Part shown: positions 42,724-64,000 of the stretch, one piece after another
Layout: the number at the start of each line of letters is the position of its first letter
How positions within the stretch are numbered: position 1 is the stretch's first letter
DNA from: an uncultured Solibacteraceae bacterium
Lineage (GTDB): Bacteria > Acidobacteriota > Vicinamibacteria > Vicinamibacterales > SCN-69-37
Reading direction: 5' to 3'
DNA: 64,000 bases
Assembly (NCBI GenBank): GCA_964471115.1
Contig: CAYYFE010000015.1
Span: 13,818 to 77,817, forward strand
Notes under the pieces: generated by a model
The model's database searches: none
The model's input: the letters and a program-made list of their open reading frames with translations, nothing else
What the model was told of the DNA's origin: nothing
Program-made: the position numbers and the translations under genes

Positions 42724-43179
42724 TCAGCGCCCGCCTGAGAGCCGCGCCTTGACCGCATCCGCCAGCACCTTGCCGTCCACGGTCTGGCCGGCCAGAGCGG
42801 CCTGCACGGCTTTCATCACCTTGCCCATGTCCTTCACGGACGTGGCTCCGGTTTCGGCCACCGCGGCGTCCACCGCCGCCGCGACGGCGGCCGGGTCGGC
42901 GGCCGGCGGCAGGAAGGTTTCGAGGAACGTCAGCTCGGCCTGTTCCTTGTCGGCCAGGTCGGCGCGGCCGCCCGCGCGGAACTGGTCGATCGAGTCACGG
43001 CGCTGCTTGACGAGCTGGCTGACGACCTGCAGGGATTCGGCCTCGTCGAGCGCGCGGCCTTTTTCGACTTCGCGGTTCATCAGCGCGGCCTTGAGCATGC
43101 GCAGCGGCCCCAGCGACGCCTGGTCGCGCTGCTTCATGGCGTCGGCAATCGCGGCGGTGACTCGGTCGAGCAGGCTCAT
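42724..43179 (-). CDS. GatB/YqeY-domain protein
   Basis: MSLLDRVTAAIADAMKQRD...LRMLKAALMNREVEKG...VSQLVKQRRDSIDQF is typical of YqeY. Confidence 0.85.
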   Translation of the reverse strand: MSLLDRVTAAIADAMKQRDQASLGPLRMLKAALMNREVEKGRALDEAESLQVVSQLVKQRRDSIDQFRAGGRADLADKEQAELTFLETFLPPAADPAAVAAAVDAAVAETGATSVKDMGKVMKAVQAALAGQTVDGKVLADAVKARLSGGR

Positions 43180-44318
43180 GGCGCAAGCATACCGCGATAG
43201 AGCGCTTCGTATTGACCGGCGACCGCCTCGGGCCCGAAGCGCGCGCGCAGGGTCTCGGCCGTCGCCTGGCTGGTCCGGCGCGGACGGGCCAGCGCGTCAG
43301 TCAGCGCGCCGGCCAGCGCGTCGACGGCCTTGCGTGGCACCACCCGCACATCGTCGCCAAACAGCGCGTGCAGCTCGACGCCGCCGGGATGATCGGCCGA
43401 GACGACCGGCGTGCCCGCCGCCAGCGCCTCGACGGCGACCGTCGGCAGGGCTTCGAGCAGGGACGGCAGCGCGAAGACGTCGGCCGCGGCCACGTACCGC
43501 GCCACCTCGTCATTGGGCACCAGCCCGGCGAAGGTGACCCGCTCGGCGACGCCCAGCGCGCGGGCTTGCGCTTCGAGCGTCGCCTTCAGCCCGCCCGTGC
43601 CGCAGATGATCAGGCGGGTGTCGGGATGGGCCTGCAACACGGCCGGCATCGCCTGAATCAGATACGTCTGCCCGGCCAGTTCATGCAGGCGTTTGACGTT
43701 GAGGATCAGCCGCGACTCGGTGATGCCCAGCGCCCGGCGCACGCCCTGCCGCGCCTCCTCGGACAGCGGGTGAAACGCCGGGGAGACGGCCGGATACACG
43801 ACCGTCAGGCCGGGGCGATCCAGCTGCAGTTCGCGCGCGCGGTCGAGCAGCCCCTGGCTGTAGAACGTGACCGTCGCGGCGCGCCGATAGGCCGCGCGGA
43901 AGAAGTCGACGGGCCAGCGGCGCTGATAGTGCCAGATCTCCGTGCCGTACAAGGTGAGCACGTACGGCACGCCGTGGCCGCGCGCCCAGCGCGCGCTCGT
44001 CTCCACCAGCAGGCCGTTCGAGTGCAGGTGCAGCGCGTCGGCGCCATCGGCCACTTCATCGAGCACGCGGGTGTACTGGCGCGAGAGCAGCGCCGCGTCG
44101 ATCCGGAGCGCGCCGGCCAGGCCCGCGCGCACCCGGCGGGGCACCCAGGTGACGCCGCCGGCCGCCGGTGCCTCGGGGGCGCCGCCCTGCGCGGGCGGAT
44201 GCGCGATGTAGATCACTTCGTGTCCATGCGCCACGGACCATTCGCCGAGCTGCGCCGGCAGGATGGCGTTGGCCGCCTGATCCGGCGGCAGATGCGGCGT
44301 GACGTGAATGATCCTCAT
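43176..44318 (-). CDS. GT4-family (GT-B) glycosyltransferase
   Basis: MRIIHVTPHLPPD... N-terminus. C-terminal EALPTVAVEALAAGTPVVS (EX7E-like) region. Confidence 0.85.
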   Translation of the reverse strand: MRIIHVTPHLPPDQAANAILPAQLGEWSVAHGHEVIYIAHPPAQGGAPEAPAAGGVTWVPRRVRAGLAGALRIDAALLSRQYTRVLDEVADGADALHLHSNGLLVETSARWARGHGVPYVLTLYGTEIWHYQRRWPVDFFRAAYRRAATVTFYSQGLLDRARELQLDRPGLTVVYPAVSPAFHPLSEEARQGVRRALGITESRLILNVKRLHELAGQTYLIQAMPAVLQAHPDTRLIICGTGGLKATLEAQARALGVAERVTFAGLVPNDEVARYVAAADVFALPSLLEALPTVAVEALAAGTPVVSADHPGGVELHALFGDDVRVVPRKAVDALAGALTDALARPRRTSQATAETLRARFGPEAVAGQYEALYRGMLAP

Positions 44319-45301
44319 GCCGGCCCCTGAACCCTGGACCCTCGGACCCTGGACCCTGCGTACGCTTCAAACGTCATTCCCTCGGCGCCCAGTTCCTTCG
44401 TGGCGTACGTCAGGAAGGCGCCCAGCCGTTCGTAGAAGGCGTCCAGCTCGGCCTCGGTGCGGTTGTACGGACTGCCGCCGACGATGGCCTCCGAGGAATG
44501 GAAGAGCAGGTTGAGAATCGGGACGCCGGCGTCGACCAGCTGCCGTCCCAGCGCGCACATGTCCTGCGTCGAGCTGTACGACGGGCGCAGCCAGCGGACC
44601 TGCGCGACCCCCGACAGACGCAGCAGGCGCTTGGTGGTGTAGTTGAACGGCGCGCGCGCGTAGGCGTGCGCCAGCCACGCCGGGACGCGCCGGTTGAGTG
44701 CGGCCGAAATCGGCAGCTCCAGCACCTGGCTCGAGCCCGGCCGCGTCGCGTTGTCGTAGGCGAGGAAGTACGGCGTCAACGGGGCCTCGACGAAGTCGGG
44801 CCCGCCCTTGTGCGCCTCGTAGAACAGGGGAGCCACGCTCGAGTCGACCAGGTAGCCGGCGCGTTCGAGTGACGAAACGTGGGAGGCCGAAAATCCGAAG
44901 CGGCCCGAACGATACGACACCGGCCGCACGCCGACCGCGGCGGTGATCGCGTCGGTCAACGACGCCAGCTGGGCGTCGAATTGATCGAGGGGCAGCTGCA
45001 GGGCGTACGGGTGCCGGCGGATGTCCGCCTCGGTGCACGGCGGCGTTTCCCACGCGTGATGATGCGCGCCGATTTCACAGTCGCCCGCCTCGTGCAGCCG
45101 GCGCAGCACCTCGGCCGAGCGGGGATCGGTGGCGACCGGATGGGTGATGACGTACGTCGGCCGGACGCCGTGACGCCGGAAGAACTCGTGCAGCCGATCG
45201 AGCGCGTAGATGTTCTCGAAGCGCTGGTGCAGGCGCGCCTGGGCGTCCCACTGGTTGTCGCCTTCGGTGTCGATTGCGACCAGCAGGGCGGGCCCGGTCA
45301 T
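44315..45301 (-). CDS. polysaccharide deacetylase-like protein (WalW-type)
   Basis: LLVAIDTEGDNQWD...VRPTYVITHPVA...EIGAHHHAWETPP resembles the divalent-metal deacetylase fold. ATGA overlaps at both ends. Confidence 0.7.
   Translation of the reverse strand: MTGPALLVAIDTEGDNQWDAQARLHQRFENIYALDRLHEFFRRHGVRPTYVITHPVATDPRSAEVLRRLHEAGDCEIGAHHHAWETPPCTEADIRRHPYALQLPLDQFDAQLASLTDAITAAVGVRPVSYRSGRFGFSASHVSSLERAGYLVDSSVAPLFYEAHKGGPDFVEAPLTPYFLAYDNATRPGSSQVLELPISAALNRRVPAWLAHAYARAPFNYTTKRLLRLSGVAQVRWLRPSYSSTQDMCALGRQLVDAGVPILNLLFHSSEAIVGGSPYNRTEAELDAFYERLGAFLTYATKELGAEGMTFEAYAGSRVRGSRVQGPA
44329..44357 (+). repeat. tandem 7/8-mer array (GGACCCT type), 4 units
   Basis: gaaccct ggaccct cggaccct ggaccct. 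It encodes the last residues (GSRVRGSRVQGPA) of the minus-strand deacetylase gene and sits just upstream of the GT4 start. Confidence 0.85.
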
Positions 45302-46341
45302 CGGTCCTGGTCCGAGTCGCCGAGTGTGACGTGCCAGGTCTCGGTGGAGTCGTAGAAGGCCTTCGGCACGTCAATGGCATTGATCTTGGCCACGAACTCC
45401 ATCGTGGACTTCACGGCGAAGTACCCCTCGGCCTTCAGGTGCTTGCGATACCCGGCGTGCATGGCAAACGCGCGAATCTTGTCGGAGTTCGCCGTCCGCG
45501 CCTCGCGATCCACCCAGCGGAGCAGCGTGAGGAACCCGGAGGCATCCTGGGGGTCGGTGAGCCAGTCCACCACCAGCGTGACGCGCCCGCGCGGTTCCTG
45601 CACGTGGCGGTAGACCACGTAACCGCCCAGCTCGCCGTCGCGTTCGAGCATGGCAATGCTGTACCGCACGTGCGGCGCCTGGATGTATTTCCAATTGAGG
45701 TACGCCGCGTCGCGGCGCACGGCGAACGCGAACTGGGGGGCCACGCGCGCCCACAGGGCGTCACAGCGCGCGTCGAACTGCCGGACCACGCGCACCTCGC
45801 CCTGCAGCGGACGCGTCCGCGCAATGAGCCGGATCCACGGCAGCGTCAGCGCCGACAGCAGCTTGTTGGCGCCCACCGACCAGCCGGGCCGCCGCAGCGC
45901 GCGGCGCGTCAGCGGCTTGACCAGGCACGGCACCGGACCCACGTCCGGCCAGCGCAGTTTGCCGAAGAGCCGATACGACGAGTCGGACAGGCCCAGGCCC
46001 AGCGACGCGCCCACGTTGCGGTCCCACGTGCGGAACAACACTTCGCCCAGCCCCTGGCGCTGACGTTCGGGGGCCACCATGACGTCCATGCCCCAGGCGG
46101 CATCGATCTCGCGGCCCTGCACCCACAACTTCACCGGCATCGTCGCGTACTGCCCGACGATGGTCTGGCCCTCCCGGGCCAGCCAGATGAGGGGCCCCTC
46201 GGCGGGCATGTGCGGATTGCGCCGGTACTGCCAGTCCCAGCGCAGCCGGTTGGCTTCGGCCGAATCGGTGCCGAACACGCGCCGGTACAACGCCTCGACG
46301 TGGCGCCGGTCATCCTCGCGGTAGCGGTCGATGTCAGCCAT
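45298..46341 (-). CDS. GNAT-family acyltransferase, two-domain
   Basis: GMDVMVAPERQRQGLGEVLFRTW matches acetyl-CoA binding motif A (Q/RxxGxG/A). About 350 aa, suggesting a GNAT plus an accessory domain. Confidence 0.65.
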   Translation of the reverse strand: MADIDRYREDDRRHVEALYRRVFGTDSAEANRLRWDWQYRRNPHMPAEGPLIWLAREGQTIVGQYATMPVKLWVQGREIDAAWGMDVMVAPERQRQGLGEVLFRTWDRNVGASLGLGLSDSSYRLFGKLRWPDVGPVPCLVKPLTRRALRRPGWSVGANKLLSALTLPWIRLIARTRPLQGEVRVVRQFDARCDALWARVAPQFAFAVRRDAAYLNWKYIQAPHVRYSIAMLERDGELGGYVVYRHVQEPRGRVTLVVDWLTDPQDASGFLTLLRWVDREARTANSDKIRAFAMHAGYRKHLKAEGYFAVKSTMEFVAKINAIDVPKAFYDSTETWHVTLGDSDQDR

Positions 46342-46343
46342 GC

Positions 46344-47204
46344 CTATTCCAGAACGTATTCCATATTACTGATGAAGATGTCGCGCGTGGCTTCGCTGTC
46401 GCGCAGCCAGCGCCCCAGCGGGCCGGGCAACCGGCGCACCGTCGCCGTCGAGTGCAGTTCCTCGCGGACGATGCGCAGGCCGGCGTCGGCGATCTGCCGG
46501 CGCAGGCGCGTCACCGTGACCAGTTCAAGCAGGTCGTCTTCCTTCCAGATGCCATTGCGCGCGTCCCGGATGAACGAGTTCTCGTGGGCGGGCTCCTTCA
46601 GCGTCCACGGCGCGTACCGCGCCAGCAGCCGGAACGTGCGGAACGCGATCCAGCGGCCCGTGATCAGGTGCAGCGGGATCTGAATCTTCAGGCGCGGCAG
46701 GTGCGCGCCGGCAAACGACAGGTACGGCGCGGTCGACAGCAGGCACCGCGCGCCGGGAGCCATCACGCGCCGGATCTCCCGCAGGTACAGCGGTGCGTCG
46801 GCGACGTGTTCGATCACGGCGTGTGACAGGACGAGATCAAACGACGCGTCGGCAAACGGCAGATACATGCCGTCGGCCTGCAGGAAGTGCAGGTGCGCCA
46901 GACCGCGTTCGCGCGCCAGCCGGACGCCGGCATCGCCGAACCGGTTGATGGGATCGATGCCCACGACGAACCGCGCGTGTTCGGCCAGTGACAGCGGCAT
47001 GCCGCCGCCGCCGCACCCGGCATCCAGCACGCGCCCTTCCACCTGCACGCCGGCGCGGTCGAGGAAGGCCAGCACCTTGGCGGACCGGTAGTACTCGAAA
47101 AGCGCGTAGTCGTACTCGGACCGGAACCGGCGGTCCGCATGCTGCTTGATCAGGGCGTCATTTATCTCGCGCACGCGGGTCGGGTCCGTCGGGAAACTTG
47201 TCAA
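46344..47204 (-). CDS. class I SAM-dependent methyltransferase
   Basis: Motif I VLDAGCGGGGM. Start uncertain (TTG 47204 or GTG 47174); it overlaps the upstream gene's 3' end. Confidence 0.8.
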   Translation of the reverse strand: MTSFPTDPTRVREINDALIKQHADRRFRSEYDYALFEYYRSAKVLAFLDRAGVQVEGRVLDAGCGGGGMPLSLAEHARFVVGIDPINRFGDAGVRLARERGLAHLHFLQADGMYLPFADASFDLVLSHAVIEHVADAPLYLREIRRVMAPGARCLLSTAPYLSFAGAHLPRLKIQIPLHLITGRWIAFRTFRLLARYAPWTLKEPAHENSFIRDARNGIWKEDDLLELVTVTRLRRQIADAGLRIVREELHSTATVRRLPGPLGRWLRDSEATRDIFISNMEYVLE

Positions 47205-55383: not shown

Positions 55384-56567
55384 CACAGTGCACTCCCGGC
55401 CGGCTGGCCGTCCAACTCCACCTTGCAGCAGCGGCGGCACACCGGGAACAGGCGGGCCTCCACCAGCTTCTTGCGCAGGGCCACGTACCGTGGCCCCGTC
55501 CACACCTCTTCCAGCGACTGCTGAGTCAGGTCGCCCACTTCCAGGCGGATGAAGGGGCAGAAGTACGCCTTGCCGGAGAACGACACCCGCGCGTAGAGGA
55601 ACGGATACAGGCAGCGGCCGGCCAGCGGTGTGCCCGGCGTGTAGTACTCATCGAGGATCGCGGGCTTGACCTTGGGCCGCATGTCGAACCGGATCCCCCG
55701 ATCGCGGCACTTCGCGATGAGCGCGTCCACCTGCGCGCGGACCCGCGCGGCGTCCAGCCCGGGGTCGTCGGTCACATACGTCGAGATCACCTTCGGGTCG
55801 TCGGTGCCCAGCTGGCGAATCGTGTCCTGCACCTCGGCCGGGGTGCTGAACATCAGGTGATTGAGGCCGATGGCGTCCACGCCCAGTTCCGCGGCCACGT
55901 CGACCATCTGGTCGAGCACCTCGAGCGTCTCGTGCGCGACCGTCGTGTTGATGCTGACGCGCAGGGGCGCGTGTGTGCGCCGCGCGGCCTCCTGCAGCCG
56001 CCGCAGGCCCGCCGACGTCCGCTCGAACGTGCCTTTGACGCCCCGGGCCTTGTCATGCATCTCGCCGGGGCCGTCAATCGACACACTGATGTGTTTGAGG
56101 AATCCGCGCGACGCCAGGTCGGCCAGCGCGTCGGCGCGTTCATCGGTGATGATCGTGCCGTTGGTGGTGAGGTAGCCGCAGACGTAGCCCTTGCCCTGAA
56201 AGACCTCCATCACGTCGAGGATGTCTTTCCGCATGAAGATTTCGCCGCCGGTGAGGCTGACCTGCAGCCCGTCCTGATCCGGAAACGCGCGGCGCAACGT
56301 GTCCATCGGCAGCTCCTGCCGCCATTCGCCCTCGATGTTGAGCAGGTCGCCGACGTAGCAGAACTCACACGTCAGGTTGCACCGCATCGTCGCTTCGTAC
56401 ACCACGCCCATGGGCAGGCGGCCGGCGTCGCCGGTGCGCTCGCGCTCGAAGCGTTCGACCTGCCGCGCGTACTTCCGTTTGCGGTACTTCGCCCACAGGC
56501 TGGTGAGGGCCGGCACGCCCCGGGCGCGGCGCGCAACGGCTTCACGGAGGTGGGCTGTCAGGGACAT
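55383..56567 (-). CDS. radical SAM enzyme with C-terminal SPASM/twitch-like Cys cluster
   Basis: CNLTCEFCYV (CxxxCxxC). C-terminal CLYPFLYARVSFSGKAYFCPF ... FPVCRRCCKVE. Confidence 0.8.
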   Translation of the reverse strand: MSLTAHLREAVARRARGVPALTSLWAKYRKRKYARQVERFERERTGDAGRLPMGVVYEATMRCNLTCEFCYVGDLLNIEGEWRQELPMDTLRRAFPDQDGLQVSLTGGEIFMRKDILDVMEVFQGKGYVCGYLTTNGTIITDERADALADLASRGFLKHISVSIDGPGEMHDKARGVKGTFERTSAGLRRLQEAARRTHAPLRVSINTTVAHETLEVLDQMVDVAAELGVDAIGLNHLMFSTPAEVQDTIRQLGTDDPKVISTYVTDDPGLDAARVRAQVDALIAKCRDRGIRFDMRPKVKPAILDEYYTPGTPLAGRCLYPFLYARVSFSGKAYFCPFIRLEVGDLTQQSLEEVWTGPRYVALRKKLVEARLFPVCRRCCKVELDGQPAGSAL

Positions 56568-58246: not shown

Positions 58247-59712
58247 CGCCGCATCACCTGCAACAGCAGCGCGCGCTCGGTCGGCCGCAGAAAGCCGGTG
58301 ACCGCGAGCCAGCCGCCGAAGATCGCGCACACGGTGGCCCCCCGCAGGAGCACACCGGTCAGGGGCGTCACGTCGGGGATCCACCGACCCGCCGTGGCCG
58401 CGATCACCCCCGCCAGGACGACCTGCGCCAGCCGCCGCCACTCATACGTCATCGGATATTGCCGGCGCGAGAACCACCCGGCCACCAGCGCCAGGGTCAC
58501 GTACGACAACACAAACGCGACGGCGGCGCCGACGGTGCCCCACGCGGGCATCAGCACCGCGCCGCTGCCCAGGCCCACTGCGGCTGAGGCAAACGTGGCC
58601 ACCGGGTAGTACTGCGTCTGACTGGTGAGATTGAGGCCGATCGAGGTCAGCAGATACACGCCCTGCCACACCAGGCCGGCCGCAATCAGGGGGACGACAA
58701 TGCCCGCCTGGGTATAGGCCGTCTCGCTCCACGGTGTGGCGGTCGTGAGCAGGCGCACCAGGTCCTCGGCAATCGCGGTCAGGCCGGCGGCCAGCAGCAC
58801 CAGCACCGCCACGCCGTAGGTCGTGATCTTGCGGAAGACCTCCCGGGCGTCCGGTTGTTTCGCCGTGGCGTAATAAAACGGCGCCCAGCCGGTCTCGAAG
58901 GCCGACAGGAACAGTTTGACCGCCTGGCCGATCGTCCCGCTGATCTGATACACGCCCAGGCTGCTGAGCGGCACGAACAGGTTGAGCAGCACCTTGTTGC
59001 CGCCGTCGAGCGCCTGCTGCGCCAGGCCGTGCGGCAACCTCGGCAGCCCGAAGCGCAGGCAGCGCCGCAGCACCTCGGCCGACCAGCGTCCCCCGATGAC
59101 CCGCCGCGTCCACGGCCAGAGCAGCGGCAACACGCCCACCGTGACGATCAGGTCGGCTACGAACAGGCCCGTGACGCCCCACTGCCACCACAACACCAGC
59201 AGAATGCGCAGCAGCAGCGTGCCGATCGACCGGCCGAACGTGAAGGCCGCAAACGTGGGGGCCGCCTTCTCCATCCGCATGACGTGGAACGGGATGAACG
59301 TGAAGGTCAGCAGGAAGATGTTGAGCAGCACGAGCCGCAGCGCGGGCAGATACCGGGCGGCGAGATCGCCGAAGAGCCAGCCCGCGATCGCCGGCGCGGC
59401 CAGTTGCCCGGCCGCCAGCAACGCGCCGCTGGCGACCAGAAGGAACCCGGCGAGCGTCCCGCCCAGCACCCGACGGGACGCCTCGTCGGCGCAGTCCAGG
59501 TAGAACCGCATGAACGCGCCGTCCAGGCCGAACCGGAAGAGGATCTTCGCGATCGTCTCCACGGCCAGCAGCAGCGCCAGCGCGCCGTAGTCCTCCTGCG
59601 TCAGGACGCGGAAGTAGAGCGGCAGCAGCAGATAACTGACGGCCGTGACACCGATGTCGCCCGCGCCGTAGATGGCGACGTCCCTGGACAGCGATCCGAG
59701 CGGTTTGCGCAC
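58243..59712 (-). CDS. Wzx-like oligosaccharide flippase (MOP superfamily polysaccharide biosynthesis protein)
   Basis: About 14 TM segments. N-terminus LSRDVAIYGAGDIGVTAVSYLLLPLYFRVLTQEDYG is typical of the family. Confidence 0.8.
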   Translation of the reverse strand: MRKPLGSLSRDVAIYGAGDIGVTAVSYLLLPLYFRVLTQEDYGALALLLAVETIAKILFRFGLDGAFMRFYLDCADEASRRVLGGTLAGFLLVASGALLAAGQLAAPAIAGWLFGDLAARYLPALRLVLLNIFLLTFTFIPFHVMRMEKAAPTFAAFTFGRSIGTLLLRILLVLWWQWGVTGLFVADLIVTVGVLPLLWPWTRRVIGGRWSAEVLRRCLRFGLPRLPHGLAQQALDGGNKVLLNLFVPLSSLGVYQISGTIGQAVKLFLSAFETGWAPFYYATAKQPDAREVFRKITTYGVAVLVLLAAGLTAIAEDLVRLLTTATPWSETAYTQAGIVVPLIAAGLVWQGVYLLTSIGLNLTSQTQYYPVATFASAAVGLGSGAVLMPAWGTVGAAVAFVLSYVTLALVAGWFSRRQYPMTYEWRRLAQVVLAGVIAATAGRWIPDVTPLTGVLLRGATVCAIFGGWLAVTGFLRPTERALLLQVMRR

Positions 59713-59721: not shown

Positions 59722-60420
59722 TCAGGGGCGCTCGAAGCGCATCAGGTTCAGGAAACACCAGCCCGGGATGGGCAACAGGCGCGTGAGCGCGCGGTGCAGC
59801 GGCCGGAGCCGGGCCGGATGCCGGCGGATGTATTTCGTCAGCACCGGCACGGTCGGAAAGATGCCGCGCCGCTCCACCAACCGGAATCCCGCGCGCCGGG
59901 CGAGATCGATGTAGTCACCGGCCGGCCGGTCGCCAGGGTGTTTCTCCAGGCTCGCCGTGTGAATCAGCCGGCCCGTCAGGATGAAGTGCACCCGCGACTG
60001 CAGGTGCGCCAGGTTCGGCACCGAGACATACAGCTGTCCGCCGGGGCGAATCACGCGGAACAGCTCGCGCAACGCCTTTGGCTGATCGTCGAACGTGAGA
60101 TGTTCAAGCACGTCCAGGCACGTCGCGCAGTCGAACGCGCCGTCCGGATACGGCAGCGGAATGAGTGAGCCCCGCTTGACGAAACGCGACTCGTAATTGG
60201 GGTCGACGCCTTCAATGGCCAGTCGCGGGTGGAATTCCTCGACGAGCACGCCTTCACCGCACCCGGCGTCGAGCACCCGCGTCCCGTCAGGCAGCGACCG
60301 CAGGAACGCGCGCACACGCTCGAGCTTGGCGAGATACGTCGGATAGAACTCCCAGTCCGGAGAGAGGTTCCGGTGGTAGTCGCCGCGCAGCGCGTATTCC
60401 CCGGTTGCGTCAGCGCCCAT
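59722..60420 (-). CDS. class I SAM-dependent methyltransferase
   Basis: Motif I VLDAGCGEGVL, post-I DVLEHL, RPGGQLYVSVPN. Confidence 0.8.
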   Translation of the reverse strand: MGADATGEYALRGDYHRNLSPDWEFYPTYLAKLERVRAFLRSLPDGTRVLDAGCGEGVLVEEFHPRLAIEGVDPNYESRFVKRGSLIPLPYPDGAFDCATCLDVLEHLTFDDQPKALRELFRVIRPGGQLYVSVPNLAHLQSRVHFILTGRLIHTASLEKHPGDRPAGDYIDLARRAGFRLVERRGIFPTVPVLTKYIRRHPARLRPLHRALTRLLPIPGWCFLNLMRFERP

Positions 60421-60459: not shown

Positions 60460-62310
60460 ATGCCCGCCACCGCCACGTCACGAGCCGTGTACGGGGCGGT
60501 GACCGCGGTGCTGGCGGCCCTGGCCGTGATGGCGACCCGGCCCGCGCAGGCCGGCTTCGACTTTGGCACCCTGCTGCCGCCCGGGTTGGTCGACGGAGTC
60601 TACGACGTCGAGCGCGGCCCGGACGGGCTGACCTACGCGTGGACCCGGCCGGTGTTCACGGTGCGGCTCGACGCGATTGACCGCGCCGGCCCCTGGGGCT
60701 TGAGGCTCAGGATGCGTGCCGCGAGGCCGGACGGATCCGAACCCGAACTGACCACGGCCGTCGACGGCATTGTCGTCGATCGCAGCCGCCTGTCCGCCGA
60801 GTTCGAGACGCGCCGCGTGCCGTTGCCGCCGCGCGCCAGCCCCGGCCCGACGCACATTACGTTCACGGTGACACCGGCCTATGTCCCAGCCGGTGATCCG
60901 CGACCGCTGGGCGCGATGGTGGACTGGCTGGCCGTCGAGCGTCCGCCGGGCGTGTGGTGGGCGGCGTCGTTTCGCGGCTGGGTGGTGCTCGTGCCCGTCG
61001 TGCTCCTCGCCGCGCTGACGGCGCTGGTGTTCGGCGCGCCCGGCATCCTCGGTGGCGCGGCGCTGTCGGGGCTGGCGGCGTGGAGCCTCACCCGTGGACT
61101 GGGGCCGCTGGTCGACTGGCCCGTGGTCAGTCTGACCGCCGCGGCAGTTGCGGCCGGGGGAGCCGTTGCGCTCGTCAGCGCCGGCCGCCGGCTGGGTGCA
61201 ATGCTGGGCGTCGTGGCCGCCGTGGCCGTGATGCTCAAGTTGCTGATCCTCGCGCATCCGGACACGCCCATCGGCGATGCGATGTTCCATGCCCATCGAT
61301 TCCAGACGGTGCTGGCCGGCAATCTGCTCTTCACTTCGATCACGCCAGGCAACTACGACTTTCCGTACGCCCCCGGGTTGTACGTCCTGTCGACGCCGCT
61401 GGCGTTCCTGACCGAGACGTCACTCGACAAGGTCTGGCTCCTGCGCATCGTCACCACGGTGGCCGAGGCGGTGGCCGCCGGCGCGGTCGGCTGGTGGGTG
61501 GGCCGCGGCGGGCAGACGGGACTGGCGGTGACGACCGCCGCGGTGTGCCATCTGCTGCCGTTGTCGATGACCGTGCTCGTCGTGGGGAACCTCACCAACG
61601 CCTTCGCGCAGGCGGCGGCGGCTCTGGCGCTGGCCGTGATGGCCCGGAGCACCGGCTCGCGCGGGTCCACCGTGGCGGCGGTGGCGCTTGTGTTGACGGC
61701 CCTGCTCTCACACACCGGGACCGCCGTGTTGTTGACGACCCAGCTGCTGGCGATTGGGGCGTGGCTCGCGTGGAAGGGCGCAGACGGCAGCGGCCCCAGC
61801 GGCCGCTGGTGGATGGGCGTGGCCACGGTCTGCGCCTTGATCGCGACGGTGGCGTACTACGCGCACTTCTGGCCGGTGTACGAGACCGCGTTGACGCGCG
61901 CGGCGGCGGAAACAGGCGCGGCCGCCTCCACCGCGGGCTTTCGCACGCCGGGGCAGCGGCTGCGCGACATTCCGGTGCTGCTGTCGCTGTACTACAGCAC
62001 CGCCGGTGTGGTGCTGGGCATGGCCGGTGTGTGGTGGTGGCGCCGCTCCGGCCTCGCGAGCAGCGACCGTGTGGTCGTGGCGGCCGGCGGCCTGGTGCTC
62101 GCGGGGTTTCTCCTCGTCGGCGTGATCACGCCGATCGACTTCCGGCACTACCTGGCGGCCATTCCCCTGGTGGCGATTGTCATCGCGATCGGGACACACG
62201 CGCTGTGGTCGACGGGCCGCCTGGGGCAGGTGGCCGTGGCGTGTGTGTGGTCGGTTCTGGTGTGGTCAGCGCTGCGCAACGCGCTTCAGGGAATCGGGGC
62301 GACGGACTAA
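60460..62310 (+). CDS. polytopic membrane protein with N-terminal extracytoplasmic domain (possible GT-C-like transferase or polymerase)
   Basis: Start re-picked at MPATATSRAVYGAVTAVLAALAVMATRPAQA. About 170-aa beta-rich domain, then at least 11 TM segments. Loop HPDTPIGDAMFHAHRF. I recognise no family. Confidence 0.55.
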   Translation: MPATATSRAVYGAVTAVLAALAVMATRPAQAGFDFGTLLPPGLVDGVYDVERGPDGLTYAWTRPVFTVRLDAIDRAGPWGLRLRMRAARPDGSEPELTTAVDGIVVDRSRLSAEFETRRVPLPPRASPGPTHITFTVTPAYVPAGDPRPLGAMVDWLAVERPPGVWWAASFRGWVVLVPVVLLAALTALVFGAPGILGGAALSGLAAWSLTRGLGPLVDWPVVSLTAAAVAAGGAVALVSAGRRLGAMLGVVAAVAVMLKLLILAHPDTPIGDAMFHAHRFQTVLAGNLLFTSITPGNYDFPYAPGLYVLSTPLAFLTETSLDKVWLLRIVTTVAEAVAAGAVGWWVGRGGQTGLAVTTAAVCHLLPLSMTVLVVGNLTNAFAQAAAALALAVMARSTGSRGSTVAAVALVLTALLSHTGTAVLLTTQLLAIGAWLAWKGADGSGPSGRWWMGVATVCALIATVAYYAHFWPVYETALTRAAAETGAAASTAGFRTPGQRLRDIPVLLSLYYSTAGVVLGMAGVWWWRRSGLASSDRVVVAAGGLVLAGFLLVGVITPIDFRHYLAAIPLVAIVIAIGTHALWSTGRLGQVAVACVWSVLVWSALRNALQGIGATD

Positions 62311-63035
62311 CGCTGGTTGCCGCCGCCACCGCCGCCGCCGCCGCGACCTGGCCGCGGACCCGTGCCGCCCGGCCCTGCGGGAGGCCCACCGGCGCGTCCG
62401 GCGTCCGGCCCGGGAATGACCACGCCCGGGATCGTCGACGTCACCGTGCCGCCGGGGCCTGAGCGCAGATTCGGATTCGTCGAACCCGATCCCCCCGGGG
62501 TCGACGGCGGCAACTCGCCAATCTGACGCGCCGGCGGAATTTCGGAATCCGGCGACGGCGCGGGAGGCGGCACCAGCTGCGGCGGCTGAGGCGGTGGTGC
62601 CTGCTGTGGCGCCTGTGGAACCGGCGTCGAGGCGGCCGGCCCGCTGGCCACCGGCACGGTGCGCGAGGCCAGGATGAACACCGCGGCAATGGTGGAGGAC
62701 GAGGCGTCGGGGGCGATTCGCGGAGCCGCGCCGTAACCGGGCACGTCCCGCAGCAGGCTGCGCAACACCGCGGCCTCAGGCTCGTCGCGGAACTCCAGCA
62801 CGGGCACCGGCGCGCCGCTCAGCTTGTCCGCGTTCACGATCCGGGATCCGCCCTTGCGGCCCCATTCCTGCAGCACTTCCCGCACCGTGACGTTTTCGGC
62901 AACGATCGTCACCTTGCCGTCCTGGAAGCTGACTTCAAGCTTGCGCGGGCCCTGTGCCAGGGTGGGCCACGAGCCCGCCAGCACGATCGCAGCACTCACG
63001 CCGACGACGAATCCGGATCGGGTCAGGGACATCAC
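62307..63035 (-). CDS. secreted protein with STN-like N-terminal domain and Pro/Gly-rich tail
   Basis: Signal peptide ...VSAAIVLAGSWPTLAQ. VSFQDGKVTIVAENVTVREVLQEW resembles secretin/TonB short N-terminal domains. C-terminal half is low complexity, ending in GGGGGGGG encoded by a (GCC)n run. Confidence 0.5.
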   Translation of the reverse strand: MMSLTRSGFVVGVSAAIVLAGSWPTLAQGPRKLEVSFQDGKVTIVAENVTVREVLQEWGRKGGSRIVNADKLSGAPVPVLEFRDEPEAAVLRSLLRDVPGYGAAPRIAPDASSSTIAAVFILASRTVPVASGPAASTPVPQAPQQAPPPQPPQLVPPPAPSPDSEIPPARQIGELPPSTPGGSGSTNPNLRSGPGGTVTSTIPGVVIPGPDAGRAGGPPAGPGGTGPRPGRGGGGGGGGNQR

Positions 63036-63081: not shown

Positions 63082-63137
63082 CCGCACTGCGCACTGCGCA
63101 CTCCGCACTGGGCACTGCGCACTGGGCACTCCGCACT
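63082..63137 (+). repeat. tandem heptamer array (SSGCACT), 8 units
   Basis: ccgcact gcgcact gcgcact ccgcact gggcact gcgcact gggcact ccgcact. It lies in the spacer between two minus-strand genes, 15 nt past the radical SAM stop codon. Confidence 0.9.
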
Positions 63138-63151
63138 GCTTATGACGCTCG

Positions 63152-64000
63152 TCAGCGCAGTTTGGTCACCCAGAGCGGCGAATCTTTCTTGGGCAGGTCG
63201 CAGGACCGGCAAATCTCGGGTCCGCCGCTTTCCAGGTGCTGGCGCCGCACGTCGAGATAGGCCGGCGAGTTCCACACCTGCGCGATGGACTGCGTCCGCA
63301 GGTCGCCGAGGATGTGCCGGCCGTCGAAATCCGCGCAGCACAGCGACACCCGGCCGTCCCACAACACCGTGAACGTCTGCCACATCCGGTAACACGGATA
63401 GGTCACGTTCGACGTGGCATTCAGCGTCCCGGCCCAGTTGTGCAGGTCGGTGATGTGAATCTTGTCGGCCACCTGCCGCCAGTGATCGATGAAGGCCTGT
63501 TCGTCGGCGGAGTTGTCCTGGCGCACGAACGACAGGATGAGTTTGGGCCGCACCTTGCCGGCGGCCTTGCGCAGCCGCACCAGCGTCTCGATGTTCCGGA
63601 TCACATCGTCGTAGCTGAGGTTGAGGCGGGTGCTCTCGAAGACCTCCTTGCCCGACGCATCGACGCTGATGTTGATGGCGTCCAGGCCCGCGTCGATCAT
63701 CCCCTGCGCGATCTCCTCGGTGATGAGCGACCCGTTGCTGATCATGCCGACCTCGGCGATGCCGCGCTGCTTCGCATAGCGCACCTTCTCGACCAGCTGA
63801 CGGTCGAGGAACGGTTCGCCGTAGTTGTGCACGCGGACGTGGGTGATCCCCAGCGCGGCGCATTCATCCACGACCTTGCGGAACAGGTCCATGTCCATGA
63901 CGCCCTGCCGCCGGTACATGTCGTCGCGCGGGCAGAACACACACTTGGCGTTGCAGAGATTCGTGCTCTCGATCTGGACGATGTCGGGCCAGCGCACCGC
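63152..64000 (-). CDS. radical SAM enzyme with SPASM-like C-terminus (N-terminus at or beyond the window edge)
   Basis: ESTNLCNAKCVFCPRDD (CxxxCxxC) at the window edge. C-terminal CYRMWQTFTVLWDGRVSLCCADF ... ICRSCD. Confidence 0.75.
   Translation of the reverse strand, partial: AVRWPDIVQIESTNLCNAKCVFCPRDDMYRRQGVMDMDLFRKVVDECAALGITHVRVHNYGEPFLDRQLVEKVRYAKQRGIAEVGMISNGSLITEEIAQGMIDAGLDAINISVDASGKEVFESTRLNLSYDDVIRNIETLVRLRKAAGKVRPKLILSFVRQDNSADEQAFIDHWRQVADKIHITDLHNWAGTLNATSNVTYPCYRMWQTFTVLWDGRVSLCCADFDGRHILGDLRTQSIAQVWNSPAYLDVRRQHLESGGPEICRSCDLPKKDSPLWVTKLR

What the first reader, a model, noticed from the sequence alone, without database searches (positions are those of the whole stretch)
43176..64000. 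Envelope-glycan cluster of at least 21 kb combining 3-4 GT-C transferases, a polyprenol-phosphate sugar synthase, SGNH+MBOAT, a flippase and three radical SAM enzymes
The gene content suggests a lipid-linked, periplasm-facing glycosylation pathway with heavy tailoring:
- GT4, a WalW-like deacetylase, a GNAT and two SAM methyltransferases;
- three ArnT/PMT_2-like GT-C enzymes plus one unclassified polytopic protein;
- a Dpm1/ArnC-like GT2, a Wzx-like flippase and an AlgI/AlgJ-like acyl-transfer pair;
- three radical SAM enzymes (one class B cobalamin-type, two SPASM-like) and a secreted STN-like Pro/Gly-rich protein.
Start/stop overlaps chain the minus-strand genes into operons (ATGA at 44315-44318, 45298-45301, 48987-48990 and 58243-58246; TGATG at 55383). 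A further overlap at 43176-43179 continues the chain into yqeY. After the terminator-like hairpin at 42586-42627 come murJ and a rhomboid gene.
Multiple GT-C enzymes together with radical-SAM chemistry do not match O-antigen, capsule, alginate, lipid A-Ara4N or teichoic-acid loci as I know them. The acceptor (protein, lipid, peptidoglycan or polysaccharide) cannot be deduced from sequence alone. The cluster also holds five of the repeat arrays.
Basis: partly seen in the sequence, partly recalled or inferred. Interest (0 to 1): 0.7.

Follow-up and report, generated by a model that had tools for sequence, protein, structure and literature searches.

The report
Conserved envelope-glycan locus with radical SAM tailoring
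This is a real gene cluster, conserved across a major group of soil bacteria (Vicinamibacteria), that most likely builds a cell-surface glycan from lipid-carried sugars modified by three radical SAM enzymes; no characterised pathway matches it.

Summary

In 80 Vicinamibacteria species genomes the chain SPASM2-SEC241-MT2-Wzx-GTC3-SPASM1-B12rSAM-(GT2)-GTC2-GTC1-MT1-GNAT-PDA-GT4-yqeY-murJ is syntenic. No NCBIfam equivalog cut-off is reached, and seven literature searches found no description of it.

New points:
- The cluster runs past the window end. Upstream of SPASM2, relatives always carry an SDR, usually followed by a large GT, a GT9 and more.
- MBOAT+SGNH is an accessory cassette in an insertion hot spot between B12rSAM and GT2.
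- The rSAMs look like sugar tailors. The closest solved relatives are AprD4 (for B12rSAM) and BtrN (for SPASM2), and SPASM1 and SPASM2 carry a one-cluster 'twitch' Cys pattern.
- The B12-type rSAM sits beside a Dpm1-like GT2 and a PMT_2 GT-C in 4 of 7 distant relatives (36-43% identity), including DPANN archaea.

Best reading: cytoplasmic GTs, a MOP flippase and periplasmic GT-C transfer from polyprenyl-phosphate sugars, with radical SAM remodelling of the sugar. The acceptor is unknown; an LPS core or lipid A type is the leading guess. I rate it a new variant of a known kind, interest about 0.6.

The parts
42586..42627 (-). Terminator-like hairpin between yqeY and murJ; marks the downstream end of the long minus-strand operon
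   Evidence: Read directly: GGGGCCTCAA-loop-TTGAGGCCCC then TTCTTTTTT on the minus strand, immediately before the murJ ATG at 42582
42724..43179 (-). yqeY, translationally coupled (ATGA) to GT4; last gene of the chain
   Evidence: Pfam YqeY 147 bits; ATGA at 43176-43179; GT4-yqeY-murJ order kept in relatives
43176..44318 (-). GT4-family (GT-B) cytoplasmic glycosyltransferase
   Evidence: Glycos_transf_1 112 bits, Glyco_trans_4_4; only sub-cutoff NCBIfam hits; no predicted TM helix
44315..45301 (-). Polysaccharide deacetylase-family protein (PDA), highly conserved (median 72% identity)
   Evidence: Polysacc_deac_1 30.1 bits; no PDB sequence relative; synteny
45298..46341 (-). GNAT-type N-acyltransferase with a 240-aa C-terminal extension
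   Evidence: Acetyltransf_9 39 bits; median 71% identity in relatives; no PDB relative
46344..47204 (-). SAM-dependent methyltransferase MT1
   Evidence: Methyltransf_11 74 bits; median 74% identity
47158..48990 (-). GT-C glycosyltransferase GTC1 (PMT_2/ArnT-like), carrying three short tandem arrays in variable loops and the N-terminus
   Evidence: PMT_2 27.9 bits, above the 26.1 gathering score. Invariant D55, H66-D67-E68 in the first loop. hhalign to GTC3 91.8%. Arrays lie where orthologues vary in length
48987..50588 (-). Probable GT-C glycosyltransferase GTC2
   Evidence: PMT_2 19.5 bits, below the gathering score. hhalign to GTC3 94.7%, E 6e-8. Invariant D35 near the N-terminus
50567..51397 (+). 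Dpm1/ArnC-like GT2, predicted polyprenyl-phosphate sugar synthase (likely start near 50651)
   Evidence: Glycos_transf_2 106 bits. Best NCBIfam hits include several polyprenyl-P glycosyl synthases (ArnC, AglJ, PpgS, halophilic Dol-P-hexose transferase), all below cut-off. 42% identical to the GT2 fused-in-operon with the rSAM homologue in L092
51394..52503 (+). SGNH/AlgX-like acyltransferase with N-terminal TM anchor; accessory
   Evidence: ALGX 33.9 bits; 1 TM; present in only 2 of 48 relatives with full flanks
52503..53909 (+). MBOAT (AlgI/DltB/PatA-like) membrane O-acyltransferase; accessory
   Evidence: MBOAT 80.9 bits; DltB model 141.9 vs cut-off 375; 3 of 48 relatives; sits in the insertion hot spot
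53932..55383 (-). Class-B-architecture (B12-binding domain) radical SAM enzyme
   Evidence: B12-binding + Radical_SAM. CX3CX2C at 216-223, invariant. Best NCBIfam HpnJ 172.7 and BchE 166.6, both far below cut-off. Nearest solved relative AprD4 by sequence and fold
55383..56567 (-). Radical SAM enzyme SPASM1 with one twitch-like auxiliary Cys set
   Evidence: Radical_SAM + SPASM; C63/67/70 and C319-X17-C337...C377-X2-C380 conserved at 98% or more; TGATG coupling to the B12 rSAM
56573..58246 (-). GT-C glycosyltransferase GTC3 (PMT_2)
   Evidence: PMT_2 47.7 bits; profile weakly hits Pmt4 9e61 and ArnT 5ezm; D32/E33 nearly invariant
58243..59712 (-). MOP-superfamily Wzx-like flippase
   Evidence: Polysacc_synt_3 46.3 bits, Polysacc_synt 38.7 bits; 45 of 48 relatives
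59722..60420 (-). SAM-dependent methyltransferase MT2
   Evidence: Methyltransf_23 67.8 bits; 46 of 48 relatives
60460..62310 (+). Polytopic membrane protein UNK616, probably a fourth GT-C-like enzyme; position varies among relatives
   Evidence: No Pfam or PDB sequence hit. About 11 predicted TM helices. hhalign to GTC2 91.3% over 320 columns and to GTC3 87% or 48% depending on the alignment. AF2 single-sequence model unusable
62307..63032 (-). Secreted protein SEC241: signal peptide, conserved 85-aa domain, Pro/Ser/Thr/Gly-rich tail ending in a Gly run
   Evidence: Alignment A4; no Pfam/NCBIfam hit; 39 of 48 relatives, always just after SPASM2
63152..64000 (-). Small BtrN-like radical SAM enzyme SPASM2 (N-terminus cut by the window end; about 319 aa in relatives)
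   Evidence: Radical_SAM + SPASM. Nearest solved relative BtrN, E 6e-12, both halves aligned. C202-X17-C220...C263-X2-C266 invariant. Always preceded by an SDR in relatives, 53/53
48909..48988 (-). Heptamer array (AGTGCSS on the coding strand) directly after the GTC2 stop codon
   Evidence: TRF; pattern search 15 hits vs 1.2 expected, only here and at 63083-63139
63083..63139 (-). Second AGTGCSS heptamer array, in the SPASM2-SEC241 spacer
   Evidence: TRF; pattern search; short-read contigs L001, L002, L005 and L006 all begin 77 bases upstream of the SEC241 start, within this array

Best explanation
The region is the larger part of a locus of 27 kb or more, conserved across the class Vicinamibacteria, that assembles a conserved cell-envelope glycoconjugate.

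Proposed mechanism (inferred unless marked otherwise):
1. Soluble enzymes work at the cytoplasmic face of the inner membrane. These are GT4, the deacetylase, the GNAT and MT1/MT2, plus, just beyond the window, an SDR, an aminotransferase, GT9 and further GT2/GT4 enzymes. They make unusual nucleotide sugars and build and trim a lipid-anchored glycan.
2. The Dpm1/ArnC-like GT2 loads a sugar onto polyprenyl phosphate.
3. The radical SAM enzymes remodel sugar carbons by oxygen-independent chemistry such as dehydrogenation/epimerisation, deoxygenation or C-methylation. These are the AprD4/HpnJ-like B12-domain enzyme with its coupled partner SPASM1, and the BtrN-like SPASM2 paired with the SDR. The B12-type enzyme most likely acts on the GT2 product or its precursor.
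4. The Wzx-like MOP flippase moves lipid-linked material to the periplasmic face.
5. Three or four GT-C enzymes transfer sugars from polyprenyl-phosphate donors onto the acceptor.
6. In this genome and its closest relatives, an inserted MBOAT+SGNH pair additionally O-acylates the product.

Shown: the families, the catalytic motifs, the translational coupling and the synteny.

Inferred: substrates, order of steps and acceptor. My leading guess for the acceptor is an outer-membrane glycolipid of the LPS core/lipid A type, at about 0.3-0.35 on its own.
For: Families and motifs:
- HMM assignments for all genes.
- CX3CX2C and the auxiliary Cys are conserved at 98% or more in all three rSAMs.
- Invariant acidic residues lie in the first loop of the GT-Cs.
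- GTC2 and UNK616 link to PMT_2 proteins by hhalign at 91-95%.

Operon structure: six start/stop overlaps on the minus strand and two more on the plus strand.

Co-conservation in 48 species genomes with full 10-kb flanks:
- MT2 46, Wzx 45, SPASM2 44, GT2 41, SPASM1 39, SEC241 39.
- GTC1 37, MT1 35, GNAT 35.
- At least two GT-C-like genes in 37.
- The enzymes are 70-80% identical.

Upstream extension: SDR 53/53, large GT 42/45, GT9 22/23.

Sugar chemistry of the rSAMs:
- Nearest solved relatives are AprD4 (E 6e-25; fold TM 0.6) and BtrN (E 6e-12).
- Both are carbohydrate-tailoring enzymes (my knowledge of those entries).

Functional link between the rSAM, GT2 and GT-C:
- B12rSAM and GT2 are tail-to-tail neighbours 27-270 bp apart in 37 of 59 relatives.
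- At 36-43% identity, 4 of 7 contexts carry PMT_2 plus a Dpm1-like GT2 beside the rSAM.
- In L092 the GT2 is 42% identical to the window's and overlaps the start of the rSAM gene.
- In an Undinarchaeales genome the order is PMT-rSAM-GT2-deacetylase with gaps of 0-7 bases.

GT2 identity: its best named relatives include several polyprenyl-P sugar synthases.
Against: - No initiating phosphoglycosyl transferase, Wzy, WaaL, PCP or OPX was recognised in the window or in about 14 kb upstream in a relative, so the acceptor and anchor are undefined.
- No protein reaches an equivalog cut-off, so every substrate assignment is by analogy.
- GTC2 and UNK616 rest on sub-threshold or profile-profile evidence between hydrophobic, GC-rich-encoded proteins, which can inflate scores. 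GTC1-UNK616 shows no relation.
- Two of seven distant rSAM relatives (L090, L096) sit in tandem rSAM pairs without any GT. A third (L097) has no recognisable GT.
- The B12rSAM model is only moderate (pLDDT 69), and cobalamin binding cannot be judged.
- GT9 scores below the heptosyltransferase cut-offs (108.5 vs 134.6).
Confidence: 0.6

Rival explanations
1. The locus specifically decorates LPS (lipid A and inner core), as the Arn, Lgm and Rgt systems do. Und-P-linked (amino)sugars made by the GT2 are deacylated and transferred by several ArnT-like GT-Cs onto lipid A or core. The GT9 and GT4 enzymes build the core. This is a narrower version of the best explanation, not exclusive of it.
For: - GT9 (heptosyltransferase family) is conserved upstream, 22/23.
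- The SDR is most similar to UDP-4-keto-pentose/UDP-xylose synthase and the ArnA C-terminal domain.
- An ArnB/PseC-like aminotransferase is present in L094.
- ArnC is the best NCBIfam hit of the GT2.
- The GTC3 profile touches ArnT 5ezm.
- Class-wide conservation at 70-80% identity fits a core structure better than a strain-variable O-antigen.
- A Wzm/Wzt ABC exporter cassette is inserted in the hot spot in L008.
- Several GT-Cs served by one GT2 is the Rhizobium RgtA-E pattern (my knowledge).
Against: - All Arn-related scores are far below the equivalog cut-offs: ArnC 54.8/529, ArnA 145/777, ArnB 200/631.
- There is no ArnT or ArnD model hit.
- No lpx, waaA or waaL gene was seen within about 45 kb.
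- A MOP flippase is not part of the known lipid A modification systems.
- No radical SAM enzyme is known in LPS core synthesis.
Confidence: 0.32
2. The GT-C enzymes are protein O-glycosyltransferases (PMT/TMEM260-like). They glycosylate the co-encoded secreted Pro/Ser/Thr-rich protein SEC241 and/or giant Ig-like surface proteins.
For: - PMT_2 is the family of bacterial and eukaryotic protein O-mannosyltransferases.
- The GTC3 profile's best PDB hit is Pmt4.
- SEC241 is conserved in the operon and has a P/S/T-rich tail.
- Giant Ig/fn3 proteins adjoin the locus in L008 and L091, and L091 has a TMEM260_N GT-C.
Against: - There is no PF02366 PMT core or MIR domain.
- The locus holds many GT2, GT4 and GT9 enzymes and nucleotide-sugar enzymes, more than a simple O-mannosylation system needs.
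- The giant proteins lie in variable cassettes, not the conserved core.
- The SEC241 tail is poorly conserved (36-60% identity).
Confidence: 0.12
3. The radical SAM genes are functionally unrelated passengers (lipid, cofactor or RiPP maturation) that merely lie among glycan genes. Alternatively, the whole region is a chance juxtaposition of independent operons.
For: - The best NCBIfam hits of the small rSAMs are heme, tungsten-cofactor and RiPP maturases.
- HpnJ, BchE and the ladderane-lipid model are among the hits of the B12 enzyme.
- Two distant relatives lack neighbouring GTs.
Against: - All those hits are 3- to 8-fold below the cut-offs.
- The rSAM genes are translationally coupled inside the GT-C/flippase operon.
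- Synteny holds over 44, 39 and 48 of 48 genomes for SPASM2, SPASM1 and B12rSAM.
- No precursor peptide, protease or transporter of the RiPP type is present.
- Subdivision-6 Acidobacteria lack shc and make no hopanoids (PMC5462960).
- The association with GT2 and PMT_2 recurs in unrelated lineages.
Confidence: 0.08

Closest known systems
Three-component extracytoplasmic glycosylation systems (GtrA/GtrB/Gtr-type; polyprenyl-P-sugar synthase + flippase + GT-C; see PMC11127046)
   Same: A Dpm1/GtrB-like GT2, a flippase and PMT_2-type GT-C enzymes are encoded together. The predicted logic, a polyprenyl-phosphate monosaccharide donor used at the periplasmic face, is the same.
   Different: - There are three or four GT-Cs for one or two GT2s.
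- The flippase is a 489-aa MOP/Wzx protein rather than a small GtrA or SMR protein.
- Three radical SAM enzymes, a deacetylase, a GNAT and methyltransferases are embedded, which is not described for these systems.
Lipid A/core modification pathways: Arn (Ara4N), Bordetella LgmABC, Francisella FlmF/NaxD/FlmK, Rhizobium RgtA-E
   Same: - A GT2 makes the Und-P-sugar.
- A deacylase acts on the lipid-linked sugar.
- One or several ArnT-like GT-Cs transfer it.
- An ArnA-C-like SDR and an ArnB-like aminotransferase are present in relatives.
- Several GT-Cs share one GT2, as in Rgt.
   Different: - No equivalog cut-off is reached.
- There is no formyltransferase and no ArnE/F.
- rSAM enzymes, a Wzx, GT4/GT9 and methyltransferases are present.
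- The acceptor is untested.
Hopanoid side-chain pathway HpnI (GT2) / HpnK (deacetylase) / HpnJ (B12-domain rSAM), and archaeal calditol synthase Cds (PMC13459092)
   Same: The triad of a GT2, a deacetylase and a B12-domain rSAM recurs. Examples are the window's locus and the archaeal operon PMT-rSAM-GT2-deacetylase in L093. HpnJ is the top NCBIfam hit. It gives a precedent for an rSAM remodelling a lipid-linked hexosamine.
   Different: - The HpnJ score is 172.7 against a cut-off of 577.6.
- The host lineage lacks squalene-hopene cyclase and hopanoids.
- The deacetylase family differs.
- GT-C enzymes have no role in the hopanoid pathway.
Aminoglycoside sugar-tailoring radical SAM enzymes AprD4 (6fd2) and BtrN (4m7t)
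   Same: They are the closest solved relatives of the B12-domain rSAM and of SPASM2 by sequence, and AprD4 also by fold. SPASM2 shares BtrN's small size and single auxiliary-cluster Cys spacing. AprD4 works with an SDR partner, and SPASM2 is always next to an SDR.
   Different: Identity is only about 20-25%. The context is an envelope-glycan locus with membrane GTs, not an antibiotic cluster. The substrates are unknown.
Mycobacterial LM/LAM and eukaryotic GPI assembly (GT4 priming, flipping, then GT-C extension from polyprenyl-P-sugars)
   Same: The overall topology is the same: cytoplasmic GT-B steps (in GPI also a de-N-acetylase), then several GT-Cs fed by a Dpm1/Ppm1-type synthase.
   Different: There is no sequence-level orthology, no phosphatidylinositol machinery was seen, and those pathways contain no radical SAM enzymes.

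Membership tests
Three-component polyprenyl-P-sugar glycosylation (GT2 + flippase + GT-C) | Dpm1/GtrB/ArnC-type GT2 that glycosylates polyprenyl phosphate | tested here: inconclusive
   GT2 domain at 106 bits. The best named hits include ArnC, AglJ, PpgS and the Dol-P-hexose transferase, but all are far below their cut-offs. The lipid acceptor is not testable in silico.
Three-component polyprenyl-P-sugar glycosylation (GT2 + flippase + GT-C) | GT-C fold transferase with an acidic motif in the first extracytoplasmic loop | tested here: met
   PMT_2 is above the gathering score for GTC1 and GTC3. Invariant D/E residues lie in the first loop.
Three-component polyprenyl-P-sugar glycosylation (GT2 + flippase + GT-C) | Small GtrA- or SMR-type flippase | tested here: not met
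   No such gene was found. The only flippase candidate is a 489-aa MOP/Wzx protein.
Arn lipid A-Ara4N pathway | ArnC, ArnT and ArnD orthologues | tested here: not met
   ArnC model 54.8 bits vs cut-off 529. No ArnT or ArnD model hit at E of 1e-3 or better.
Arn lipid A-Ara4N pathway | ArnA (formyltransferase + decarboxylase) and ArnB | tested here: not met
   Present only in relatives beyond the window: an SDR at 145 bits vs 777 with no formyltransferase domain, and an aminotransferase at 200 bits vs 631 whose better hit is PseC.
Wzx/Wzy-dependent O-antigen or EPS locus | Initiating phosphoglycosyl transferase (WbaP or WecA type) | tested here: not met
   No Bac_transf or Glycos_transf_4 domain in the window's cluster or in 14 kb upstream in L094.
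Wzx/Wzy-dependent O-antigen or EPS locus | Wzx flippase | tested here: met
   Polysacc_synt_3 46.3 bits vs 23; Polysacc_synt 38.7 bits vs 28.2.
Wzx/Wzy-dependent O-antigen or EPS locus | Wzy polymerase, chain-length regulator, OPX exporter or WaaL ligase | tested here: not met
   No Pfam hit of these families. UNK616 resembles the GT-Cs rather than Wzy_C.
Hopanoid side-chain pathway (HpnI/J/K) | HpnJ equivalog and a hopanoid-producing host | tested here: not met
   HpnJ 172.7 bits vs 577.6. Subdivision-6 Acidobacteria lack shc and hopanoids (PMC5462960).
Alginate-type O-acetylation (AlgI/AlgJ/AlgX) or PatA/PatB | MBOAT plus periplasmic SGNH partner | tested here: met
   MBOAT 80.9 bits and ALGX 33.9 bits, with the genes translationally coupled. 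The pair is present in only 2-3 of 48 relatives, and no AlgF or alginate synthase is present.
RiPP maturation by SPASM radical SAM enzymes | Seven-Cys SPASM domain with two auxiliary clusters, plus a precursor peptide | tested here: not met
   Only a CX17C...CX2C set is present. No precursor, RRE, protease or exporter was seen. The nearest solved relative of SPASM2 is BtrN.
Class B (cobalamin-dependent) radical SAM enzymes | N-terminal Rossmann B12-binding domain plus a CX3CX2C radical SAM core | tested here: met
   B12-binding 36 bits and Radical_SAM 70.9 bits. Fold matches are AprD4, TsrM, MgmA, OxsB and TokK.
Class B (cobalamin-dependent) radical SAM enzymes | Actual cobalamin binding and use | not testable with these tools
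   The closest relative, AprD4, has the domain but is reported not to use cobalamin (my knowledge). No diagnostic sequence motif exists.
LPS core (waa) locus | GT9 heptosyltransferase acting on Kdo-lipid A, with waaA/lpx/waaL nearby | tested here: inconclusive
   A GT9 is conserved upstream in relatives (22/23) but scores below the cut-off (108.5 vs 134.6). It lies outside the window, and no waaA, lpx or waaL was seen.
Protein O-mannosyltransferase (PMT, GT39) | PF02366 PMT core and MIR domain | tested here: not met
   Only PMT_2 matched.

The most novel reading that the evidence does not exclude
The B12-domain radical SAM enzyme, the Dpm1-like GT2 and the PMT_2 GT-C, often joined by a deacetylase and a twitch-type rSAM, form an ancient and so far unrecognised module. 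In it a radical SAM enzyme remodels a polyprenyl-phosphate-linked (amino)sugar before or after GT-C transfer. The remodelling could be C-methylation, deoxygenation, or an HpnJ/Cds-like ring contraction to a carbasugar. The module would be shared by Vicinamibacteria, other bacteria and DPANN archaea. It would give one of the most abundant soil bacterial classes a conserved envelope glycan containing a sugar type not yet described in cell envelopes.
Probability: 0.25. Interest if true: 0.8.

Novelty: new variant of a known kind. Interest (0 to 1): 0.6.

Why it matters
Vicinamibacteria (Acidobacteriota subdivision 6) are among the most abundant and least studied soil bacteria, and nothing is known about their envelope glycans. 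A locus this large, this conserved (70-90% identity for the enzymes across the class) and placed next to murJ probably makes a core surface structure. That structure would matter for soil aggregation, desiccation tolerance, and phage and predator recognition.

For enzymology, the repeated pairing of a class-B-type radical SAM enzyme with a polyprenyl-phosphate sugar synthase and a GT-C is a concrete, testable lead. The pairing appears in bacteria and in DPANN archaea. It points to radical chemistry on lipid-linked sugars, for which I found no description in the literature searched.

The locus also widens the known range of GT-C usage in Gram-negative bacteria beyond ArnT, Rgt and Gtr.

Tried and rejected
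- **Hopanoid side-chain pathway.** I rejected it. HpnJ is only a sub-cut-off best hit, and subdivision 6 lacks shc and hopanoids.
- **RiPP or cofactor maturase reading of the small rSAMs.** I rejected it on the Cys pattern, the absence of a precursor and the BtrN similarity.
- **Extending the source contig beyond 64000 by exact-protein look-up.** Only short Logan contigs that break at the heptamer array were returned. The extension was inferred from relatives instead.
- **AlphaFold model of UNK616 without an alignment.** The pLDDT was 43, so it was unusable and no fold search was made.
- **Profile search of UNK616 against PDB sequences and Pfam at E up to 1.** Nothing meaningful came back.
- **PDB sequence relatives of the deacetylase and the GNAT.** None were found.
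- **Looking for the locus in cultured strains (Vicinamibacter, Luteitalea)** through a second homologue search seeded from a Vicinamibacteraceae orthologue. The top 120 hits were all uncultured, so this is unresolved.
- **Literature.** Eight searches were run. Seven, aimed at this combination of families or lineage, found no description of this kind of locus. The eighth retrieved the HpnI/J/K literature used for the precedent.
- **Rfam scan of the whole window at gathering thresholds.** There were no riboswitches or other RNA families, including cobalamin.
- **Sigma-70 promoter scan of 44001-64000.** It found none, which is uninformative for this phylum.

Full report
**Source and gene map**

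The window is 69% G+C. Its proteins are closest to MAG proteins labelled Vicinamibacterales or Acidobacteria. A GC3 frame analysis and the ORF list give one clear gene per stretch from 40289 to 64000. Gene calls on identical short-read contigs fix several starts:
- B12rSAM is 483 aa.
- GTC3 is 557 aa.
- UNK616 is 616 aa.
- SEC241 is 241 aa.

**Check of the observation**

- GT4, Polysacc_deac_1, GNAT and two class-I methyltransferases.
- PMT_2 in three polytopic proteins. Two are above the gathering score; the third scores 19.5 bits against 26.1.
- A GT2, an SGNH/AlgX protein and an MBOAT.
- One B12-binding + Radical_SAM protein and two Radical_SAM + SPASM proteins.
- A Polysacc_synt (Wzx-like) protein.

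Two proteins have no hit: a polytopic 616-aa protein and a secreted 241-aa protein.

The other sequence features also check out:
- All the ATGA and TGATG overlaps are in the sequence, and two more couple GT2, SGNH and MBOAT.
- The hairpin with a T-run before murJ is present.
- TRF finds five short arrays in the region.

**Is it one unit?**

I aligned 14 orthologues of the B12-domain rSAM and scanned one genome per GTDB species. At least 471 stretches encode a relative. The best 80, at 66-88% identity, are almost all labelled Vicinamibacterales or Acidobacteria (a few carry other, probably mis-binned, labels). A tblastn of all window proteins against these loci shows the same order in most of them: SPASM2, SEC241, MT2, Wzx, GTC3, SPASM1, B12rSAM, then GT2 on the other strand, then GTC2, GTC1, MT1, GNAT, PDA, GT4, yqeY, murJ.

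Counts among the 48 loci with full 10-kb flanks:

| Gene | Loci with the gene |
|---|---|
| MT2 | 46 |
| Wzx | 45 |
| SPASM2 | 44 |
| GT2 | 41 |
| SPASM1 | 39 |
| SEC241 | 39 |
| GTC1 | 37 |
| MT1 | 35 |
| GNAT | 35 |
| GTC3 | 29 |
| PDA | 28 (at the edge of the flank) |
| GT4 | 28 (at the edge of the flank) |
| GTC2 | 25 |

Soluble enzymes are 70-80% identical to the window's. GT-Cs, Wzx and SEC241 are 40-50% identical.

**What is core and what is accessory**

MBOAT and SGNH occur in only 3 and 2 of the 48 loci. In 37 of 59 loci the B12rSAM and GT2 genes are tail-to-tail, 27-270 bp apart. In the other 22 a cassette of 0.9-8.7 kb is inserted there. The window's cassette is the 2.5-kb SGNH+MBOAT pair, shared with its closest relatives L011 and L012.

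Other cassettes hold the following:
- FkbM-type methyltransferases.
- A second Wzx-like gene.
- HEAT and FG-GAP proteins.
- UNK616-like proteins.
- In L008, a Wzm/Wzt-type ABC exporter, a GT4 and a giant Ig-like protein.

UNK616 homologues move about (17 of 48). So the locus has a conserved core and a variable tailoring slot.

**The cluster continues beyond the window**

In relatives, SPASM2 is always preceded by an SDR (53 of 53 loci with enough sequence). Further upstream come a GT-B-like protein of about 600 aa (42/45), a GT9 (22/23) and a protein of about 590 aa with no Pfam hit (7/8).

In L094 another 10 kb upstream holds four GT2s, a 400-aa PMT_2 protein, GT4s and a DegT-family aminotransferase. 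One of the GT2s is 42% identical to the window's Dpm1-like GT2.

NCBIfam places these proteins as follows, all below cut-off:
- The SDR is nearest to UDP-4-keto-pentose/UDP-xylose synthase (181.6 vs 294) and the ArnA C-terminal domain.
- The aminotransferase is nearest to PseC and ArnB.
- The GT9 is nearest to heptosyltransferase II (108.5 vs 134.6).

The full locus is therefore about 27 kb at least, and up to about 45 kb.

**The GT-C set**

GTC1 and GTC3 are PMT_2 members. The GTC3 profile weakly touches Pmt4 and ArnT among solved structures. Invariant acidic residues sit in the first loop: WHDEGAW in GTC1, D35 in GTC2, and D32/E33 in GTC3.

Profile-profile comparison:

| Pair | hhalign probability |
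|---|---|
| GTC2-GTC3 | 94.7% |
| GTC1-GTC3 | 91.8% |
| GTC2-UNK616 | 91.3% over 320 columns |
| GTC3-UNK616 | 87% or 48%, depending on the alignment |
| GTC1-UNK616 | unrelated |

I accept three GT-Cs and regard UNK616 as a probable fourth. A single-sequence AlphaFold model of UNK616 was useless (pLDDT 43).

**The radical SAM enzymes**

All three keep CX3CX2C. All further Cys are conserved at 98% or more, except C130 of SPASM1 (97%), C46 of SPASM2 (96%) and C113 of B12rSAM (82%).

- **Auxiliary clusters.** SPASM1 and SPASM2 have a single CX17C...CX2C auxiliary set. From memory, that is the spacing of the one-cluster 'twitch' domain of BtrN, not the seven-Cys SPASM motif.
- **SPASM2.** The nearest solved relative of the full-length orthologue is BtrN, with both halves aligned (E 6e-12).
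- **B12-domain enzyme.** Its nearest solved relative is AprD4, both by sequence (E 6e-25) and by fold (TM about 0.6). It is followed by TsrM, MgmA, OxsB, CysS and TokK (model pLDDT 69).
- **Reference chemistry.** AprD4 and BtrN both act on aminoglycoside sugars or cyclitols (my knowledge).
- **NCBIfam.** The top hits, HpnJ at 172.7 and BchE at 166.6, are far below cut-off.
- **Hopanoid role.** It is excluded, because subdivision-6 Acidobacteria lack shc and hopanoids (PMC5462960).
- **RiPP role.** Nothing RiPP-like (precursor, protease or exporter) is present.

**Link between the rSAM and the lipid-sugar machinery**

A search of 1.84 billion cluster representatives shows the Vicinamibacteria orthologues collapse into one cluster. 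The next relatives are only 36-43% identical. I looked at seven of their genomic contexts.

| Locus | Source | Context of the B12rSAM relative |
|---|---|---|
| L091 | metagenome contig, lineage not given | three PMT_2 proteins (one with TMEM260_N and TPR), GT4s, GT2s, methyltransferases |
| L092 | short-read assembly contig, lineage not given | GT2-B12rSAM-PMT_2-GT2-B12rSAM-rSAM-DUF2079-GT2, plus a SPASM rSAM and a GT4 |
| L093 | Undinarchaeales | PMT-B12rSAM-GT2-Polysacc_deac_1 with gaps of 0-7 bases, two more B12 rSAMs, a cis-prenyltransferase |
| L095 | Micrarchaeota | PMT_2-GT2, DUF6311, a methyltransferase, the rSAM, HGSNAT_cat, another GT2 |
| L097 | NCBI assembly GCA_033853995.1, lineage not given | resembles L095 but without recognisable GTs |
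| L090 | ENA metagenome contig, lineage not given | tandem rSAM pair without GTs |
| L096 | short-read assembly contig, lineage not given | tandem rSAM pair without GTs |

In L092 the GT2 overlapping the rSAM start is 42% identical to the window's GT2. So 4 of 7 distant contexts repeat the theme of a B12-type rSAM with a Dpm1-like GT2 and a PMT_2 GT-C. This is the strongest clue that the rSAM works on the GT2's substrate or product.

The hopanoid triad HpnI (GT2), HpnK (deacetylase) and HpnJ (B12-domain rSAM), and archaeal calditol synthase, are precedents. In both, a radical SAM enzyme remodels a lipid-linked hexose or hexosamine (PMC13459092).

**Mechanism proposed**

Steps are inferred unless marked as shown.
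1. Cytoplasmic GT-B and GT-A enzymes and nucleotide-sugar enzymes build a lipid-anchored glycan with amino and methylated sugars. The GT4-PDA-GNAT-MT1 sub-operon is tightly coupled, which is shown. It suggests addition of an N-acetyl-hexosamine, de-N-acetylation, re-acylation and methylation.
2. The Dpm1-like GT2 makes a polyprenyl-phosphate sugar.
3. The B12-domain rSAM with SPASM1, and SPASM2 with the SDR, carry out oxygen-independent C-H chemistry on sugars.
4. Wzx flips lipid-linked material.
5. GTC1-3, and perhaps UNK616, transfer sugars in the periplasm.
6. MBOAT and SGNH O-acylate the product in this lineage only.

The acceptor is not defined. GT9, the Arn-like SDR and aminotransferase, class-wide conservation and the Wzm/Wzt cassette point to an LPS core or lipid A type glycolipid. 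A protein acceptor (SEC241 or giant Ig-like proteins) is the main alternative. No initiating phosphoglycosyl transferase, Wzy, WaaL, PCP or OPX was recognised.

**Comparison with known systems**

The locus works like a three-component GT2/flippase/GT-C system and like the Arn, Lgm and Rgt lipid A and core decoration pathways. Its topology also resembles LM/LAM or GPI assembly. It fails the membership tests for Arn, Hpn, canonical Wzx/Wzy, PMT and RiPP systems (see the table).

Eight full-text searches were run. Seven, aimed at this combination of families or lineage, found no description of such a locus. The eighth retrieved the HpnI/J/K papers used for the precedent. No Rfam family is present in the window.

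**Verdict**

- I rate it a new variant of a known kind: GT-C-based extracytoplasmic glycosylation, here with embedded radical SAM sugar tailoring. It is conserved across an abundant, poorly studied soil class.
- Interest is about 0.6.
- It would be higher if the rSAM/GT2/GT-C module is shown to make a new kind of lipid-linked sugar.

Noticed in passing
window 48909-48988 and 63083-63139: Two arrays of the same heptamer (AGTGCSS on the coding minus strand; 11 and 8 copies) lie 14 kb apart. Each sits directly after a stop codon at a gene junction inside the cluster (after GTC2 and after SPASM2). The pattern occurs nowhere else in the window: 15 hits vs 1.2 expected. If GTC1 really starts after the array, both arrays are intergenic spacers. 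Short-read contigs start within the second array.
   Followed up: partly
window 3651-3710, 7514-7569, 27075-27150, 37801-37877, 47812-47871, 48242-48314: The window is unusually rich in 7-, 8- and 10-bp tandem arrays (periods not divisible by 3), often at gene junctions. Seven arrays score 80 or more in 64 kb. The 80 related loci together hold only six such arrays in about 1.4 Mb. This looks like a peculiarity of this genome. Slipped-strand changes would shift reading frames.
   Followed up: partly
window 47812-47871 and 48242-48314 (inside GTC1): Two 8-bp arrays are read through in frame as 8-aa peptide repeats (MDRWIDGS x2.5; SxxHLATSP x3). They sit in loops where orthologues vary in length. 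Orthologues in L020, L011 and L085 carry their own unrelated repeat peptides at variable positions. These are possible phase- or length-variable loops of a GT-C.
   Followed up: partly
L093 (Undinarchaeales, GCA_030750015.1) 3783-13014; L095 (Micrarchaeota, GCA_043797525.1) 3329-13115: DPANN archaea carry compact operons that combine PMT/PMT_2, a Dpm1-like GT2, a deacetylase or an HGSNAT-type transmembrane acetyltransferase, methyltransferases and one to three B12-domain radical SAM enzymes. In L093 these lie next to a cis-prenyltransferase and a carbamoyltransferase.
   Followed up: partly
L008 17136-21455; L091 17128-21437: Giant surface proteins with Ig-like, fn3 and Big_1 domains lie next to the rSAM/GT-C loci in two otherwise different genomes. 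They are more than 1600 aa in L008 and more than 2300 aa in L091. They are possible glycosylation targets.
   Followed up: no
L010 (BTVE01000018.1): The closest genome-collection relative (88% identity, same synteny) is labelled 'Acidimicrobiia bacterium'. L089 is labelled 'Bifidobacteriaceae' and L012, L022 and L033 'Solibacteraceae'. These labels look like binning or taxonomy errors rather than transfer.
   Followed up: no
window 53909-53932: The convergent MBOAT and B12rSAM genes end 22 bp apart, around a short GC palindrome (ACCCCGCCGGGGT). It may serve as a bidirectional terminator without a T-run.
   Followed up: no
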